Virus record (IMG/VR): IMGVR_UViG_2548876937_000011
Span: 1 to 6,743 of that record
DNA: 6,743 nucleotides
Direction: 5' to 3' (one strand)
Origin: a virus
Lineage: Duplodnaviria; Heunggongvirae; Uroviricota; Caudoviricetes
The position numbers and the translations under genes were made by a program. Positions 545 to 6,743 of the stretch are shown piece by piece; the first letter of the stretch is position 1, and each line of letters starts with the position of its first letter. The notes beneath the pieces are model-generated. The model was not told where the DNA came from. It worked only from the letters and a program-made list of their open reading frames with translations, and ran no database searches.

Positions 545-895
545 TCACTTAAGCCGTTCACGGGCCGTCTTCGCCTTATGACACGGCCAGCACAGACTCT
601 GCAGATTACTGTCGGCATCAGTGCCGCCATGTGCTTTAGGGATGATGTGGTCAACGGTTTTCGCTTCACGCGCCACACCAGCACGCAGACATAACTGACA
701 CAGGCCTTTGTCACGTTGCAGCACACGCGCGCGGATAGCGTCCCACTTAGAACCATAACCGCGCTGATGACGGGATTGTCCTGACTTGTATTGCTTCCAG
801 CCTTCGCTTTTGTGGCTTTCGCAGTAGCCTGACGGGTCTGTCGTGGTATTACGGCAGCCGCGAACGCGGCAGGATTTTGGAGTTCGAGGGGGCAT
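545..895 (-). CDS. Phage-associated HNH endonuclease (packaging-associated)
   Basis: 116-aa ORF with ATG at 895-893 and AGGA upstream. Contains a Cys-rich N-terminus and the HNH core ...DHIIPKAHGG...NLQSLCWPCH... It lies immediately upstream of the terminase small subunit gene, as in HK97-like phages. Confidence 0.9.
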   Translation of the reverse strand: MPPRTPKSCRVRGCRNTTTDPSGYCESHKSEGWKQYKSGQSRHQRGYGSKWDAIRARVLQRDKGLCQLCLRAGVAREAKTVDHIIPKAHGGTDADSNLQSLCWPCHKAKTARERLK

Positions 896-2469: not shown

Positions 2470-2553
2470 TACAATTTTTTTTGCGTACGCGTTAGTTTTT
2501 TATTACTTTACTTTTTGATACTATCGGCGTGGTTACAAACAAGGAGAACAGCA
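2470..2553 (+). promoter_or_regulatory. AT-rich candidate promoter region and RBS for the + strand cassette (may also hold a divergent minus-strand late promoter)
   Basis: A/T tracts and several weak -35/-10-like hexamers (e.g. TTGCGT at 2481-2486; TACTTT/TATTAC/GATACT between 2501 and 2522), none with good spacing. Strong SD AAGGAG at 2541-2546, 7 nt before the ATG at 2554. Exact promoter elements could not be fixed by eye. Confidence 0.25.
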
Positions 2554-2817
2554 ATGAGTAACTACTTGGAAGTTAAGAGAAAAATTGGTCAATATGCATG
2601 TGTTACTCGGTGGGGTTTTCCCTGTGCCGAGCGTGAAATCACTTTGATACAAAATGACATTAACTCCGCGATTCAAAGTGGTAAAGTTATAAGTCGTAGC
2701 ATGCTCCAAGGCATTATCAGCCGTCATGTTCCCAATACCCATTTCTTAATCACCGACAGTGTGGACAACTCTGATCTTAACACTGCATTAAGAATGCTGG
2801 CGCCAAAACAAAAATGA
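2554..2817 (+). CDS. Hypothetical 87-aa protein, first gene of the AT-rich cassette (function unknown)
   Basis: ATG at 2554 preceded by AAGGAG. Stop TGA at 2815-2817 overlaps the ATG of the next gene (ATGA). The ORF-track version 2515..2817 begins at a TTG with no RBS. No recognisable motif. Confidence 0.7.
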   Translation: MSNYLEVKRKIGQYACVTRWGFPCAEREITLIQNDINSAIQSGKVISRSMLQGIISRHVPNTHFLITDSVDNSDLNTALRMLAPKQK

Positions 2818-3554
2818 ATAATGATGTGTTTCAGATCAGCCCCGACGAAGTAACGTCGGAGCTGATTTCTGCAAAGGAAAGATTTTTACGTGGTATTCAG
2901 CCATACTTGTGTAATGGTATATCAAACCTTGCTGACCTACATGAAATTCAGCAGCATGCTTCAAAATATTTTAATACCGCTGTTAAATTAGTTCAAAAAG
3001 TAGATTTATGTAAACTGGATGACAATAAGACATTTGCCATTTCCTTAGTTGGAGACTGTCGAGCGGTTCTGGAAACTTATTTAGAATACTACGACATGAT
3101 GGTGTCAAACATTAAATGCCTAGAAATTGATCCAAACAATATTGTACTGTATAGCAAAGATGGTCTATCAAACCTCCAAAGAATCATTAAAAAGTATTCA
3201 TCAAAAGATATTTACACACCTATTATTGCTGAATTTGAGTCTCGAAATTTGCCAATCGATGGATTTACTATAGGCACACCAATGAATTGGAAATTAATTG
3301 TCACTGCCATTATTGGATTTTTAAGTTTTTGTATTTTTTTATCAATTACGCTGCTAATCCCAGATTTAAATGAATTTCAAAAGAAAATGATTTTCTCTTT
3401 ATATTTCATGAGCGCGGCCGTTGGAATCTCGCCATTCATTGCAAATAATATAAAGGTCAATGGGAAGATGGCATTTCGTGGTTCGGAATTCAAAGTATCT
3501 GCTGTTGGTGGTTTAGCAGCATTGATTGTTTCTTTCATCATCCAAGTAATTTAG
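2814..3554 (+). CDS. Hypothetical 246-aa membrane protein (soluble N-terminal domain plus C-terminal TM helices); candidate effector of the cassette
   Basis: ATG at 2814 overlaps the upstream stop. About 170 N-terminal residues are hydrophilic, followed by hydrophobic segments WKLIVTAIIGFLSFCIFLSITLLIP, MIFSLYFMSAAVGISPFIANNI and VSAVGGLAALIVSFIIQVI at the extreme C-terminus. Low GC. No recognisable catalytic motif. Confidence 0.75.
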   Translation: MNNDVFQISPDEVTSELISAKERFLRGIQPYLCNGISNLADLHEIQQHASKYFNTAVKLVQKVDLCKLDDNKTFAISLVGDCRAVLETYLEYYDMMVSNIKCLEIDPNNIVLYSKDGLSNLQRIIKKYSSKDIYTPIIAEFESRNLPIDGFTIGTPMNWKLIVTAIIGFLSFCIFLSITLLIPDLNEFQKKMIFSLYFMSAAVGISPFIANNIKVNGKMAFRGSEFKVSAVGGLAALIVSFIIQVI

Positions 3555-3580: not shown

Positions 3581-3922
3581 TCATAGCATTGATAGCACAC
3601 CACTAACAAAACCTAATGCTGTTTGCATATCTTTTCTAATTGTCCCATCAGAACACTTACGCTTCTTCGCAATGGTGCGTAATGAAATACCAATAACAAA
3701 GTGGGCAATAACTAACTCATATTCTTCTTGTTTATATTTACGTAACCGTGCGACACAACCGTCTATCATGATACCTTCATCATCATCACACTGGAGGCGA
3801 GACTTTTTACCGTGTGGTAAAAGCCCCTTGAAGCCTGCTGCTACCGGCTGCCAGTCCACACCACTGTTGTCTGCTGCAGCCCATGCACCCCAGCGGTCCA
3901 ATACTTCATACATATCACGCAT
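3581..3922 (-). CDS. Late-gene antitermination protein Q (QuuD-like, Phage_antitermQ family)
   Basis: The N-terminus MRDMYEVLDRWGAWAA...AAGFKGL...SR.QCDDD...I.GC.ARL.K matches what I recall of E. coli QuuD-type Q proteins. The track ORF starts at a GTG (3937); I prefer the ATG at 3922-3920, which has GGAG 8 nt upstream and aligns with the QuuD N-terminus. Confidence 0.8.
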   Translation of the reverse strand: MRDMYEVLDRWGAWAAADNSGVDWQPVAAGFKGLLPHGKKSRLQCDDDEGIMIDGCVARLRKYKQEEYELVIAHFVIGISLRTIAKKRKCSDGTIRKDMQTALGFVSGVLSML

Positions 3923-3940
3923 CAACTTACTCCACAAAAA

Positions 3941-4936
3941 TCAGGCCAGCACGCCTATTGCCAGCGCACGATCGATAAAACGAAATATCAGCTCCAGCTG
4001 GGAGCCATACTTCTCTTCAAATGCCACGGTATCCGCATGCAGCTCGTCGTGATGCTTTCTGCACAAAGGCAACACAAAGAGGTCATGCGCTTTTGTACCC
4101 ATTCCACCCTGACCGTGGCCTATCAGGTGGTGGGGATCATCAGCAGGCTTTCCACAACATGCACACGGCTGTGTCTTAACCCAGCGCGTGTACTTTTCAT
4201 TAACCCAGCGGCGGCGTTTTGGGCGTAACATAAAAGACTCCGGCGACTCCGGATCCACTTTCAGCGCCAGCACCTTTTTCGCTTTATCCTGGATGATGCT
4301 GGTGGCAGGAACCGAAGGCACAAGGTCACTTTCCCGAGTGACAGACGGCACAACAGGTTTCGGTAATCTCAGTGCCTTACGGGCTGCGCTTTCAGGTAAG
4401 GCATCCGCCAGGTCATTACGAATCAGCCACCAGCACAGTTCCGGCATTGTCACGGCATGGTTATCATCAAAACCGAGATCCCGACGGACTACAGACAACA
4501 CCCAGCGGGCACAGTTATCCGTTGCCATTGATTCCAGCCGTTCCGTGAACTGATCGCGCAGCTGGTTATCGCAGTGCCAGCACAGACGGATTGCGCCCGG
4601 AGCGTGTCGCATTGTTGTCATGTTCTCGCTGTGCCAGTCGGAATGAGGCCACTGGCAGCCTTTTTCACGAAGTAACCAGCTTTCAAGACATTCCACGCCA
4701 CCAGCACGACGGATCACTGCCTCATTGCGGAACACGGCCCGAACGGCAGGATCATCCGCCAGCGGTTGTGATGCCGCCGGAACGGCACCACTGGCGAAAG
4801 ATGAATAACGTTCCGGCTCAGGCTCCAGCAGGACACGTCCCTGCATAAACAGGGGCATCAGCTCTGAACCTGGCCTGAACAATACGATCCCCATACGCGG
4901 GGCAATTTCAGGGGTCAGTAGTGCTCTCACGGTCAC
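3941..4936 (-). CDS. DUF968-family prophage protein (YdfU-like) with C-terminal HNH-like Cys/His cluster
   Basis: 331-aa ORF. C-terminus has CACCGKPADDPHHLIGHGQGGMGTKAHDLFVLPLCRKHHDELH, which I recall as typical of DUF968 proteins found upstream of Q in E. coli lambdoid prophages. Start is uncertain: GTG at 4936 (1 nt after the upstream stop) or ATG at 4894; neither has a clear SD. Confidence 0.7.
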   Translation of the reverse strand: MTVRALLTPEIAPRMGIVLFRPGSELMPLFMQGRVLLEPEPERYSSFASGAVPAASQPLADDPAVRAVFRNEAVIRRAGGVECLESWLLREKGCQWPHSDWHSENMTTMRHAPGAIRLCWHCDNQLRDQFTERLESMATDNCARWVLSVVRRDLGFDDNHAVTMPELCWWLIRNDLADALPESAARKALRLPKPVVPSVTRESDLVPSVPATSIIQDKAKKVLALKVDPESPESFMLRPKRRRWVNEKYTRWVKTQPCACCGKPADDPHHLIGHGQGGMGTKAHDLFVLPLCRKHHDELHADTVAFEEKYGSQLELIFRFIDRALAIGVLA

Positions 4937-4937
4937 C

Positions 4938-5780
4938 TCAATGAACGGTATCGAGCAGCTTTAACAGCTCAGGGAATCGGGACTCGAAGAAATGCGGCTG
5001 CGTCTCGCGCGGATTTGCGGGACTGGTGATGTTCTTGCCGAACATGCAACCTTTCGCTGTCAGCGACCAGAATTTTTTGATGTTGTTAATCGCGGTACGG
5101 CTGTATCGTTCGCGTTGTTCAACGATCCCCAGCTTCGCCATCTGGTGATATGCCTGATTAGCCGTAAGGCGGATACCATACTGTTTCAGCAGTGCACTCA
5201 GCGACAGCGTAGGACGACTTGAGCCATCAGGCGCGTCAGCAGGAGCATCAATGGCATAGCGCGGTGCCAGATTCGGTAAGCCAACAGCCTCCTGGAGTTT
5301 CTGACAGGCACCAAGCACTGAAGAGTTAGACAGGTTTAATTCCCGGCGCATAAAGTCCAGCAGAATCACACCAGCCTGCATCTTGTCAGCAGCCTGTCCG
5401 GATAATTTTTCCGGTGCGCTGGTTACCATGTCGAAAGTACGGATCACCTTCAGATGGAATGACGGGCTGATCCACATTGCATAGGCATACACCAGTTCCT
5501 TGCAGACATACGTTCCTCCATTCCGCCCTTCTATTTTACTTACTGGTTTACTACCCAAATTTTGGGTAGTTTCATTGAATGAACCGACACCCAAATTTTG
5601 GGTATCGATCAATTCCTGAACCAGCTCAGTAATCTGTTGGCTGGAAAGAAACTTTCCCGGCTCCTTAGTTCTGGCATTTGCACCAGATGCAACAGCAGCC
5701 CGATGCAGATCGTTCAGGCTGTAACGCCCATAAGCATCACGACGAACTTCAATACCATCAATGACCATCAGATTATTCAT
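4938..5780 (-). CDS. KilA-N domain protein with C-terminal KilAC/ANT-like domain (phage antirepressor-like)
   Basis: N-terminus MNNLMVIDGIEVRRDAYGRYSLNDLHRAA...KFL has the KilA-N signature. The track ORF starts at GTG 5813; I prefer ATG 5780-5778, which is preceded by AAGAGGAGAAA with 8-nt spacing and does not overlap rusA. Confidence 0.8.
   Translation of the reverse strand: MNNLMVIDGIEVRRDAYGRYSLNDLHRAAVASGANARTKEPGKFLSSQQITELVQELIDTQNLGVGSFNETTQNLGSKPVSKIEGRNGGTYVCKELVYAYAMWISPSFHLKVIRTFDMVTSAPEKLSGQAADKMQAGVILLDFMRRELNLSNSSVLGACQKLQEAVGLPNLAPRYAIDAPADAPDGSSRPTLSLSALLKQYGIRLTANQAYHQMAKLGIVEQRERYSRTAINNIKKFWSLTAKGCMFGKNITSPANPRETQPHFFESRFPELLKLLDTVH
5553..5604. repeat. Two copies of a 16-nt near-palindrome ACCCAAATTTTGGGTA (5553-5568 and 5589-5604) inside the KilA-N coding sequence
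   Basis: Exact 16-nt direct repeat 36 bp apart, each copy itself an inverted repeat (ACCCAAA / TTTGGGT). At the protein level it produces a duplicated TQNLG peptide. Confidence 0.8.
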
Positions 5781-5799: not shown

Positions 5800-6189
5800 T
5801 CAGGCGGCTGCACCCGCCGTTTTCTCGTACTTACTGATAGTGATCTCGACCTTCCCTTCCGGGATAACCGGTCCCCACTCCACCAGCATTCTTTTCACCT
5901 GACTGTCGTCTTCCCACACACCCGCGTGGGTCAGGGCGTCAAACAGCGCCTTGTTATAGTTGTCCAGATCGCGGATCCGGTTATCCGGAGGAAACAACAC
6001 GATCTCCACTGAAGCAGGTGCCGACGTTGGTTTCGGCAGACGACGTAACTGCTCAACTATTGCTGCACACGCCGCGCTCTGGAATTTGCGCCCCGCCGCG
6101 CTTATCAGGTTCTTACCTGCAAACGCCCCTTTGTTGGGGTGTCGCCAGTACGTGTTCACGCTGGGCGGAAAAGGCAGGATCAGCTTCAT
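5800..6189 (-). CDS. rusA: Holliday junction resolvase RusA
   Basis: 129-aa ORF with the RusA signature region ...RIRDLDNYNKALFDALTHAGVWEDDSQV... ATG at 6189-6187 with GGGAGA upstream. Its start overlaps the stop of the upstream methyltransferase gene (ATGA). Confidence 0.85.
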   Translation of the reverse strand: MKLILPFPPSVNTYWRHPNKGAFAGKNLISAAGRKFQSAACAAIVEQLRRLPKPTSAPASVEIVLFPPDNRIRDLDNYNKALFDALTHAGVWEDDSQVKRMLVEWGPVIPEGKVEITISKYEKTAGAAA

Positions 6190-6743
6190 GCCACTATCTC
6201 CCTGACCAGCCGTTCTGCCTGCTGGCGAACCTGCGCCAGAAACGCCTCACCACATGCCTCAAGTTCATCGCGCCCGATGTAGCTGATTGCCGGTCCCTTC
6301 CAGGTCTTGTCGAAAACAGCAATAGCACCAGCGAAGAAAGCGCCTGTCGGCACCTGCTTCTCGTCCTTCGGGATAAACCAGGCAGGCAGTTCAAAACCAA
6401 TACGCCCGCGAATAAAAGCAATATGATCTGCATCTTCCGGCCACCACACTTCGCTGGTGGCAGCTTTGATCAGGAAAACATAGCGTCCGCCCTTATCACG
6501 CATGGCACTGGCATGCTTCATGATGTAACGCATGCCGGTGATGTATTGCCCTTCATGCTGACTGGCGCGGCTGTATGGGGGATTACCAAAGGCAGCCCCT
6601 TTAAGCTCCGCAAGACGTTCTGACCAGTCATGCGCCAGCGCGTTGTCTTCCGCAGTGTAATAAGCGGCACATTTGGCGTTATCACCATCAGTGAACAGAT
6701 CCAGAACAAACGGGCCAAACAGGGTGTTAATTCCCCAGAAAAT
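6186..6743 (-). CDS. Phage N6-adenine DNA methyltransferase (Dam-like; partial, N-terminus beyond the right window edge)
   Basis: The minus-strand frame of the 6186..6533 ORF stays open to position 6743 (hand-translated, no stop). It reads ...DLFTDGDNAKCAAYYTAEDNALAHDWSERLAELKGAAFGNPPYSRASQHEGQYITGMRYIMKH... The NPPY tetrapeptide is the catalytic motif IV of N6-adenine methyltransferases. Confidence 0.75.
   Translation of the reverse strand: MFWGINTLFGPFVLDLFTDGDNAKCAAYYTAEDNALAHDWSERLAELKGAAFGNPPYSRASQHEGQYITGMRYIMKHASAMRDKGGRYVFLIKAATSEVWWPEDADHIAFIRGRIGFELPAWFIPKDEKQVPTGAFFAGAIAVFDKTWKGPAISYIGRDELEACGEAFLAQVRQQAERLVREIVA

What the first reader, a model, noticed from the sequence alone, without database searches (positions are those of the whole stretch)
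5553..5604. Tandem palindromic 16-mers embedded in the KilA-N coding sequence
ACCCAAATTTTGGGTA occurs twice, 36 bp apart, and each copy is a near-perfect inverted repeat. Palindromes of this size spaced about 3.4 helical turns apart resemble operator or recognition sites for a dimeric DNA-binding protein. They also create a short peptide duplication (TQNLG), so this may be a recent local duplication. A regulatory site inside an antirepressor-like gene would be interesting.
Basis: seen in the sequence. Interest (0 to 1): 0.4.

Follow-up and report, generated by a model that had tools for sequence, protein, structure and literature searches.

The report
Conserved palindrome inside KilA-N phage genes
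The two palindromes are real, and they are the local, duplicated form of a DNA palindrome that sits at the same spot in KilA-N genes of many unrelated bacteria and phages (including phage P1 kilA), which points to an undescribed DNA signal hidden inside the coding sequence, most likely a site the protein uses to recognise its own gene.

Summary
ACCCAAATTTTGGGTA lies at 5553-5568 and 5589-5604. Each copy has 7-nt arms around one central base; copy 1 extends to a perfect 21-bp palindrome. Both lie in a 280-aa KilA-N gene (4938-5780, minus strand) between rusA and a DUF968 gene upstream of Q.

The palindrome is a family-wide feature. Of 69 unique distant KilA-N genes, 68% carry a strong palindrome (arms about 11-12 bp) at the same position, against 4% of control windows. 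That position is the junction between helix B and the wing of the winged-helix fold. P1 kilA has it too.

The sequences differ completely between lineages, yet pairing is kept and all four pair types occur at every arm position. Codon choice is tuned for symmetry. One palindrome sequence is kept in two different reading frames. Mismatches show no mRNA G·U bias.

No further copy exists in a complete related phage genome. E. coli alleles have 1, 2 or 3 copies, and several other lineages carry 2-3 tandem palindromes.

Best reading (inferred): a cis-acting, dyad-symmetric DNA element, probably the protein's own cognate site. It resembles BstA/aba, λ O iterons and HK022 Roi. It is not a classical repressor/Cro operator. 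I found no description of it in the searchable literature.

The parts
5550..5570 (.). Palindrome copy 1: a perfect 21-bp palindrome, ACTACCCAAA-T-TTTGGGTAGT (core 16-mer 5553-5568). It encodes T71-S77 (TTQNLGS) on the minus strand.
   Evidence: I3, 10-nt arms, 100% complementary. As a DNA hairpin it folds at about -8 kcal/mol, z -4.7.
5577..5615 (.). Palindrome copy 2: the core ACCCAAA-T-TTTGGGT lies at 5589-5603 (16-mer 5589-5604). It extends imperfectly to 39 bp. On the coding strand, 5583-5609 gives 13 pairs including two G·T. It encodes about I58-G66 (IDTQNLGVG), at the canonical family position at the end of helix B.
   Evidence: I2, 19-nt arms, 79% complementary; centre 121 of the inter-anchor region.
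5553..5624 (.). Two 36-bp units that share only the 16-nt core. They are the substrate for copy-number change (alleles with 1, 2 or 3 copies).
   Evidence: D1; mEp460 has one copy; P0001 and P0002 have TQNLGVGSFNET twice, then TQNLG.
5508..5696 (-). Hypervariable cassette (about aa 29-91: helix B, palindrome loop, first wing strand). It is flanked by DNA 93-100% identical to the SfII and mEp460 alleles.
   Evidence: identity profile.
4938..5780 (-). KilA-N gene, 280 aa. It has an N-terminal KilA-N/APSES-fold domain (aa 7-120, 5421-5762) and a C-terminal domain with no Pfam match.
5800..6189 (-). rusA (Holliday junction resolvase), the upstream neighbour in the same operon. Context only.
   Evidence: PF05866, E 1e-14.
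3941..4936 (-). DUF968/YdfU-family gene, the downstream neighbour. Context only.
   Evidence: PF06147, E 2.8e-81.
3581..3937 (-). Q antiterminator gene, downstream in the same transcription direction. Context only.
   Evidence: PF06530, E 3.4e-45.

Best explanation
The two 16-mers are a duplicated copy of a DNA-level, dyad-symmetric element that is intrinsic to KilA-N domain genes. The element has arms of about 11-12 bp around a short A/T-rich centre. It always lies in the codons that link helix B to the wing of the winged-helix DNA-binding domain.

Shown here:
- The element is conserved in position across Alpha-, Beta- and Gammaproteobacteria, Myxococcus phage Mx9 and phage P1 kilA.
- Its sequence differs between lineages.
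- Symmetry is maintained beyond what the encoded peptide requires.

Inferred:
- It acts in cis as double-stranded (or extruded) DNA that a symmetric protein recognises.
- That protein is most likely the KilA-N protein encoded by the same gene.
- Site and recognition surface therefore travel together as one roughly 190-bp specificity cassette.

Possible outcomes of binding are autoregulation, a roadblock of the early-right transcript that continues to Q, or a 'self' tag that spares the phage's own DNA from its KilA-N protein, as aba does for BstA. The window allele has two such sites 36 bp apart.
For: 1. Position conservation.
- Perfect palindromes with arms of at least 10 nt occur 12 times in 11.6 kb of the LNDLH…YVCKEL interval. 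They occur 9 times in 381 kb outside it. Centres lie 106.5-109.5 nt after the anchor in most loci.
- Palindrome score is at least 8 in 68% of 69 unique genes against 4% of 680 size-matched control windows, Mann-Whitney p 2.5e-28.
- P1 kilA, Ralstonia phage Heva, an Acinetobacter phage, Mx9 and a Vibrio phage have the palindrome at the same place although their C-terminal domains differ.

2. DNA-level rather than peptide-level constraint.
- In the synonymous-recoding test, 16 of 56 distinct cores were never reached in 300 recodings, and most of the rest rarely.
- The palindrome centre falls in different codon phases.
- CAAAGCAGGAATTCCTGCTTTG is read as KAGIPAL in Tepidiphilus. The same DNA is read as QSKNSCF or QSSNSCF in another frame in Bombella and Marinomonas.

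3. Covariation.
- Across 36 distinct palindromes, arm positions 4-11 are 78-100% paired (most 86% or more), with all four pair types at each position.
- Pairing falls to about 35% at positions 13-14.
- Pairing is 0.90, against 0.21-0.32 when the partner arm is slid.
- Compensatory changes occur between E. coli alleles: ACT…AGT, GAT…ATC and CCGAT…ATCGG.

4. No mRNA signature. In stems the mismatches are 4 G·T on the sense strand, 11 G·T on the antisense strand, and 20 other.

5. Cassette structure. The variable segment 5508-5696 is bracketed by 93-100% identical DNA. It covers helix B, the palindrome and the first wing strand.

6. Precedent. BstA is a KilA-N-like prophage protein with a homologue-specific, DNA-based element (aba) overlapping its own gene (PMC8585504).

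7. Recurrent multiplication. Two or three tandem palindromes occur in at least 7 lineages, 32-39 or about 60-72 bp apart.
Against: - No binding data exist. Identifying the KilA-N protein as the binding partner is inference from the fact that only the gene itself is constant across contexts.
- No second copy occurs elsewhere in the phage. A regulator of other promoters is therefore unlikely, and a single self-site must suffice.
- Several genes carry two or three palindromes of unrelated sequence (class D, L144, L199, L187). This fits structure-specific recognition, or hybrid cassettes, better than one sequence-specific dimer.
- The central 2-4 nt are asymmetric in more than half of the lineages. 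This is compatible with a hairpin loop as well as with an uncontacted spacer.
- APSES domains are known mainly as monomeric binders (my own knowledge).
- The window protein is not a BstA homologue.
Confidence: 0.42

Rival explanations
1. Structure-specific DNA element. The palindrome works as a hairpin or cruciform, on single-stranded replication intermediates or extruded under supercoiling. Its shape is recognised or processed, not its sequence. Candidates are a junction- or hairpin-binding protein, or a replication or recombination initiation or pausing site.
For: - Sequence is free to vary while pairing is kept.
- The centre is often asymmetric and A/T-rich, flanked by G/C, which favours extrusion and looks like a loop.
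- Unrelated palindromes coexist within one gene.
- Arm length is constant at about 11-12 bp.
- BstA is reported to localise to replicating phage DNA (PMC8585504).
- rusA lies directly upstream in the window.
Against: - DNA hairpins of this size are only about -8 kcal/mol.
- Neighbours such as rusA are not conserved in other loci.
- The same palindrome sequence is kept across classes of bacteria, which suggests that sequence matters.
- The hypervariable cassette pattern in E. coli looks like selection for specificity.
Confidence: 0.22
2. Self-perpetuating, functionless palindrome. An ancestral palindrome in a mutation-tolerant loop is kept symmetric by template-switch (quasi-palindrome) correction, which copies changes from one arm to the other. 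It drifts in sequence and occasionally duplicates by slippage.
For: - The encoded peptide lies in a low-confidence, insertion-tolerant loop.
- Mismatch types look random, with no G·U bias.
- Slippage-type copy-number variation of 1, 2 or 3 copies exists.
- No other copies occur in the genome.
- Quasi-palindrome templated mutation is an established mechanism (my own knowledge).
Against: - Palindromes of this strength are rare elsewhere in the same loci, at 4% of control windows with intergenic terminators included. There is thus no general tendency for tolerant regions to hold them.
- The element persists at one codon-level position across bacterial classes and different protein architectures.
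- Arm length is constant.
- New palindromes have been gained repeatedly next to the first.
- The cassette boundaries are sharp.
Confidence: 0.15
3. mRNA hairpin. The palindromes fold in the transcript and modulate expression of a toxic Kil-type protein, for example through an RNase III site, a ribosome pause or translational autoregulation.
For: - The 106-nt coding-strand RNA folds at -44.9 kcal/mol, z -8.8, with two clean hairpins.
- In the window, and in the mEp460 and L071 alleles, several arm mismatches are G·U on the sense strand.
- P1 KilA kills the host when over-expressed (annotation; PMC8201110).
Against: - Across 36 distinct palindromes only 4 of 35 non-Watson-Crick pairs are sense-strand G·U, against 11 antisense and 20 other. 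A selected RNA stem should be rich in G·U.
- There is no Rfam match.
- There is no U-tract and no terminator-like site.
- Many centres are fully self-complementary (AATT, GATC, CCGG), which a loop does not need.
Confidence: 0.12
4. One reading: operator sites for the phage repressor, Cro or another phage regulator that happen to lie inside the gene.
For: Dyad symmetry and two sites in tandem.
Against: - No related site lies in the immunity region or anywhere else in the complete PhiR63_1 genome.
- The element follows the KilA-N gene into unrelated genomic contexts that lack a lambdoid immunity region.
- Different palindromes occur in alleles that sit in otherwise near-identical phages.
Confidence: 0.04

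Closest known systems
BstA / aba self-immunity system of prophages (Owen et al. 2021, PMC8585504)
   Same: - A prophage protein with an N-terminal KilA-N(-like) DNA-binding domain.
- A short DNA-based element overlapping the protein's own gene.
- The element is specific to each homologue (cognate pairs).
- The logic of linking the cis element and the protein in one locus.
   Different: - aba is 63 bp at the 5' end (29 bp upstream plus the first 34 bp of the ORF). Its key feature is terminal CCCGCC direct repeats, not a palindrome.
- bstA lies next to cI, not in the nin region.
- There is no significant sequence similarity (BLASTP E 0.16) and no BstA-type PADLOC hit, only a partial PDC-S22 match.
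- BTP1 bstA has only a weak 12-bp palindrome in its KilA-N loop.
Lambda-type replication origin: iterons inside gene O
   Same: - Dyad-symmetric repeats lie inside the coding sequence of the protein that binds them.
- They sit in a flexible linker next to its winged-helix domain.
- They occur in tandem and are type-specific between lambdoid phages (established knowledge).
- An unrelated metagenomic phage family carries the very same 21-bp palindrome in such a layout.
   Different: - Here there are one to three sites rather than four.
- There is no adjacent A/T-rich region.
- The gene is not the initiator; the related phage has its own O gene.
- Lambda iterons are conserved in sequence within a phage, whereas tandem palindromes here can differ.
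HK022 Roi (Clerget & Boccard 1996, J Bacteriol 178:4077; recalled from the abstract, as the paper is not held)
   Same: - The gene lies in the same part of a lambdoid genome, between the replication genes and Q.
- It encodes a DNA-binding protein reported to bind a site within its own gene.
   Different: - Roi has a different N-terminal region, which I judged Rha-type by eye (not tested). It shows no BLASTP similarity to the window protein.
- roi contains no comparable palindrome.
- There is no IHF consensus near the window palindromes.
Phage P1 KilA (family prototype)
   Same: - 41% identity over the KilA-N domain.
- It carries a 14-bp-arm palindrome, AAAGAAACTATGCA-gaat-TGCATAGTTTCGTT, at the homologous position.
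   Different: - The palindrome sequence and the C-terminal domain differ.
- P1 kilA sits in the kilA-repL lytic replicon.
- No feature is annotated at the palindrome in the P1 record.
Fungal APSES DNA-binding domains (Mbp1, Swi4, Bqt4)
   Different: These are eukaryotic transcription factors. No embedded self-site is known for them, and I did not examine their genes.

Membership tests
KilA-N domain proteins (Pfam PF04383) | Match to the family HMM above the curated threshold | tested here: met
   74.6 bits against a cut-off of 23.8, aa 7-120.
KilA-N domain proteins (Pfam PF04383) | APSES/KilA-N winged-helix fold | tested here: met
BstA/aba self-immunity system | Protein homologous to BstA (KilA-N-like N domain plus the BstA C domain) | tested here: not met
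   BLASTP against BTP1 BstA gives E 0.16. PADLOC gives only a partial PDC-S22 hit.
BstA/aba self-immunity system | The element overlaps the 5' end of the gene and has terminal CCCGCC-type direct repeats | tested here: not met
   The element here lies 175-230 nt inside the ORF and is an inverted repeat. aba is described.
BstA/aba self-immunity system | The DNA element suppresses the cognate protein's activity, in cis and in trans | not testable with these tools
   This needs genetics: the palindrome supplied on a plasmid, and recoded prophages.
Phage repressor/Cro operators | Related sites at the regulated promoters or immunity region of the same phage | tested here: not met
   There is no other site with up to 3-4 mismatches in the whole PhiR63_1 genome or in the window.
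Lambda-type origin iterons | An array of iterons inside the initiator gene with an adjacent A/T-rich unwinding region | tested here: not met
   There are two copies, the gene is not O (one search shows a separate O gene), and local G+C is about 50%.
Intrinsic terminator | G+C-rich hairpin followed by a U-tract | tested here: not met
   no terminator-like site at 5550-5615 on either strand.
Known structured RNA families (Rfam 15) | Covariance-model match | tested here: not met
   no match with E up to 1 in the whole window.
Slippage-prone tandem repeat (VNTR-like) | Copy-number polymorphism among close relatives | tested here: met
   One copy in mEp460 and L071, two in the window and PhiR63_1, and three in P0001 and P0002.

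The most novel reading that the evidence does not exclude
KilA-N genes, from P1 kilA to lambdoid nin-region genes, carry a self-encoded address label. The DNA that codes for the variable linker next to the recognition helix would itself be the lineage-specific target of the protein it encodes.

Competing phages could then tell 'my DNA' from 'your DNA'. This would generalise BstA/aba-type self-immunity to the whole KilA-N family. It would also explain the hypervariable cassette, the tandem gains of foreign palindromes (acquired cross-immunity) and the Kil phenotype.
Probability: 0.25. Interest if true: 0.85.

Novelty: new variant of a known kind. Interest (0 to 1): 0.7.

Why it matters
KilA-N proteins are among the most common and least understood proteins of phages and large DNA viruses. 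They are annotated variously as 'antirepressor', 'transcriptional regulator' or 'kills host'.

A DNA element has these properties:
- It is fixed in position across the family.
- It is free in sequence.
- It is maintained against the reading frame.
- It is packaged with the recognition helix in a swappable cassette.

Such an element gives the family a concrete and cheaply testable handle. One can ask what binds it, and whether it marks self. If it is the cognate site, it extends the BstA/aba idea of self-immunity to thousands of prophages, including Stx phages and P1. It would also show a neat way for mosaic genomes to keep a cis site and its trans factor from being separated by recombination. 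In addition, it warns annotators that these coding regions carry a second layer of information.

Tried and rejected
- Roi orthology. HK022 Roi shows no BLASTP similarity to the window protein, and roi has no palindrome. The 1996 paper could not be read.
- IHF site next to the palindromes. There is no WATCAANNNNTTR anywhere in the window.
- Extra copies as operators. None were found in the window, in ±3 kb of 80 loci, or in the whole PhiR63_1 genome.
- Exact 15-mer scan of viral contigs. About a third of the hits are homologous genes. The rest are unrelated, mostly single, matches expected for a 15-mer in a collection of that size. They include terminator-like long palindromes and one ori-like family.
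- Sense-strand G·U bias, which the window and mEp460 alleles suggested. It disappears in the family-wide count.
- Central-symmetry test as proof of a duplex site. In 18 of 41 lineages both inner pairs are complementary, against 2.6 expected. Most of these are AATT from the common G-I-P codons, so the test is not independent evidence.
- BstA membership. Rejected.
- I did not run the count of structure pairs or RNAalifold on centre-anchored palindromes. Such an alignment is selected for pairing and would be circular. I used control windows, slid partners and synonymous recoding instead.

Full report
**1. What is in the window**

The + strand reads ACTACCCAAATTTTGGGTAGT at 5550-5570 and ACACCCAAATTTTGGGTATCG around 5589-5604. 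The repeat finder reports two identical 16-mers (5553-5568 and 5589-5604) 36 bp apart. It also reports a perfect 10+1+10 palindrome for the first and an imperfect 19+1+19 palindrome for the second. Allowing 3 mismatches, the 15-mer occurs nowhere else in the 6743 bases. Shuffled sequence gives 0.2 matches on average.

All genes of this part of the window run on the minus strand. They are a Dam-like fragment, rusA (5800-6189), a 280-aa KilA-N protein (4938-5780 from the ATG), a DUF968/YdfU-type protein, and the Q antiterminator. This is the nin region of a lambdoid prophage. The protein is 100% identical in an Stx2c-converting phage and 98% identical at DNA level in Escherichia phage PhiR63_1. 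The palindromes encode T60-G64 and T72-G76, which is TQNLG twice.

**2. Close relatives: a variable cassette and variable copy number**

Alignment with E. coli and Shigella phages shows three states:
- PhiR63_1 has both copies.
- mEp460 has one imperfect copy (ACCCAAATTCTGGGT on the + strand) and lacks 36 nt.
- SfII and Stx2a phages have a different sequence there.

An identity profile shows that only 5508-5696 (aa 29-91) is divergent. The DNA on both sides is 93-100% identical to the SfII and mEp460 alleles.

Protein searches found alleles with three TQNLG units, TQNLGVGSFNET twice and then TQNLG. The two-copy cassette is present in 145 of 5426 complete E. coli genomes.

Only the 16-nt core is shared by the two units in the window. 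The two-copy state is therefore not a fresh 36-bp duplication, whereas the third copy clearly arose by slippage between the two cores.

**3. The motif elsewhere**

An exact scan of viral contigs returned more than 119 stretches. About 41 of them are homologues of this gene. Among these, diverged alleles keep the core but extend the symmetry with different flanks: GATACCCAAAATTTGGGTATC, and a 29-bp perfect palindrome containing CCGATACCCAAAATTTGGGTATCGG, with 14-nt arms. These are compensatory changes.

Neither the complete PhiR63_1 genome nor the ±3 kb around 80 other homologues holds a second copy of the local palindrome outside the gene. A repressor/Cro-type operator network is therefore not supported.

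**4. The key result: distant homologues**

I fetched 80 loci encoding 41-70% identical KilA-N domains from species-representative genomes. Many carry a long perfect palindrome at the same place in the gene, with unrelated sequences:
- TGCCAAAGCAGGAATTCCTGCTTTGGCA (Tepidiphilus, 28 bp)
- AAACTCTGCGCCGGCGCAGAGTTT (Janthinobacterium)
- CAAAGCGGGAATTCCCGCTTTG (Pseudomonas)
- AATAGCCGGAATTCCGGCTATT (Marinomonas)
- CACTGTTGGAATTCCAACAGTG (Moraxella)
- AAATACACAGATCTGTGTATTT
- AACCGCTCCTGAGATCACAGGAGCGGTT (Proteus)

Even the SfII allele has one: CGAGTTGCAGATTTGCAACTCG.

Statistics:
- Perfect arms of at least 10 nt occur 12 times in 11.6 kb between the protein anchors LNDLH and YVCKEL, and 9 times in 381 kb outside. 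Centres cluster 106.5-109.5 nt after the first anchor.
- With a mismatch-tolerant score, 68% of 69 unique genes reach a score of at least 8, against 4% of 680 size-matched windows from their flanks (p 2.5e-28).

Phage records extend the pattern to P1 kilA (AAAGAAACTATGCA-gaat-TGCATAGTTTCGTT), Ralstonia phage Heva, an Acinetobacter phage, Myxococcus phage Mx9 and a Vibrio phage. These have different C-terminal domains. The feature therefore belongs to the KilA-N domain coding sequence. It is weak or absent in the more distant ST104 orf45 and APSE-2 subgroup.

**5. DNA or peptide?**
- Recoding each protein with random synonymous codons rarely or never reproduces the observed symmetry. For 16 of 56 distinct cores, 0 of 300 recodings did so.
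- The symmetry axis falls after codon position 1, on position 2, or after position 2 in different lineages.
- The same DNA palindrome CAAAGCAGGAATTCCTGCTTTG is translated as K-A-G-I-P-A-L in Tepidiphilus, Pseudomonas and Glomeribacter. It is translated as Q-S-K/S-N-S-C-F, one frame over, in Bombella and Marinomonas.

The constraint is therefore on the nucleic acid.

**6. DNA or RNA, sequence or shape?**

Across 36 distinct palindromes, arm positions 4-11 are 78-100% paired, with all four Watson-Crick types at each position. Pairing drops to about 35% at positions 13-14, so the element has a constant size of roughly 2 × 11-12 bp. Sliding the partner arm reduces pairing from 0.90 to 0.21-0.32.

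Non-Watson-Crick pairs are 4 G·T on the sense strand, 11 on the antisense strand and 20 other. A selected mRNA stem should be rich in sense G·U, and this one is not. That holds even though the window's coding-strand RNA would fold very stably (-44.9 kcal/mol, z -8.8).

There is no Rfam match and no terminator-like tail.

The central 2-4 nt are often asymmetric. This fits either a hairpin loop or an uncontacted spacer of a dimer site.

Several lineages carry two or three palindromes in tandem, 32-39 or about 60-72 bp apart, sometimes of unrelated sequence. This favours shape recognition, or hybrid cassettes.

**7. Where the element sits in the protein**

The palindromes therefore encode the end of helix B of the winged helix and a flexible, insertion-tolerant linker to the wing. 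The hypervariable cassette of E. coli alleles covers exactly helix B, the palindrome and the first wing strand.

**8. Context and literature**

Neighbouring genes are not conserved among distant loci. The only constant partner of the element is the KilA-N gene itself.

Searches for KilA-N or kilA together with palindrome or inverted repeat found no description of this feature. The P1 record annotates nothing at the site.

The closest precedent is BstA. It is a prophage abortive-infection protein with a KilA-N-like N-domain, and its own locus carries aba, a 63-bp DNA-based, homologue-specific element that protects the phage from its own protein. The window protein is not a BstA homologue, and aba is neither palindromic nor in the same place. 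This is therefore a functional analogy, not membership.

Other analogies are λ O and its iterons, and HK022 Roi. Roi is reported to bind within its own gene; I recall this from the abstract, and the paper could not be read.

**9. Interpretation**

Shown: the finding's palindromes are real. They are the duplicated local version of a position-conserved, sequence-variable, symmetry-maintained DNA element of KilA-N genes.

Inferred (0.42): the element is a cis-acting site recognised as DNA by a symmetric protein, most likely the gene's own product. It would serve autoregulation, a roadblock ahead of Q, or self-recognition. Its location inside the specificity cassette keeps site and protein linked in mosaic phages.

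Rivals:
- a shape-specific hairpin or cruciform function (0.22)
- a functionless palindrome kept symmetric by template-switch correction (0.15)
- an mRNA hairpin (0.12)
- a repressor/Cro operator (0.04)

**10. Verdict**

I rate the finding a new variant of a known kind, namely a cis element embedded in the gene of its probable binding protein. The interest lies in its breadth and testability.

Noticed in passing
L009:6960-7010 (also L017, L020, L057, L062, L067, L076, L085, L100, L106, L119, L121-L124): An unrelated family of metagenomic phage contigs carries the identical 21-bp palindrome ACTACCCAAAATTTGGGTAGT and a near-copy 22 bp away, read in a different frame. Both lie at the 3' end of an O-like or DnaD-like replication-initiator ORF and are followed by very A/T-rich DNA. 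The layout resembles the lambda origin.
   Followed up: partly
window 2515-3554 (+ strand): A low-G+C island (35%) lies between Q and the holin gene. It has two ORFs (100 aa, and 246 aa with a hydrophobic C-terminal half) on the strand opposite to all phage genes, and neither has a Pfam match. It looks like a moron at the position where Stx phages carry stx.
   Followed up: partly
proteins P0033-P0037, P0041, P0053, P0057: These are 401-405-aa proteins that combine RusA and KilA-N domains. rusA and the KilA-N gene are fused, or read through, in several assemblies. In the window the KilA-N reading frame is open upstream to a GTG at 5813 and overlaps the end of rusA.
   Followed up: no
protein P0003: An SfII-type allele has an internal duplication of about 70 aa in the C-terminal domain (AIDAPADA…KGCMFG twice).
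   Followed up: no
window 6186-6533 (- strand): This 115-aa ORF matches only the C-terminal half (profile positions 73-167) of the phage Dam methyltransferase family. At the corresponding place upstream of rusA, PhiR63_1 has a full methyltransferase gene followed by a small LexA-like gene.
   Followed up: no
L173, L199, L144, L156 (Candidatus Glomeribacter gigasporarum contigs): KilA-N genes of this fungal endosymbiont have the longest loops, with two or three different palindromes in tandem and repeated peptide motifs (KAGIPAL … KAGIPAI).
   Followed up: partly
window 545-895 (- strand): An HNH endonuclease gene (Pfam HNH, E 5e-16) lies downstream of the lysis genes. This is the usual position next to the terminase genes in cos-type phages.
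   Followed up: no
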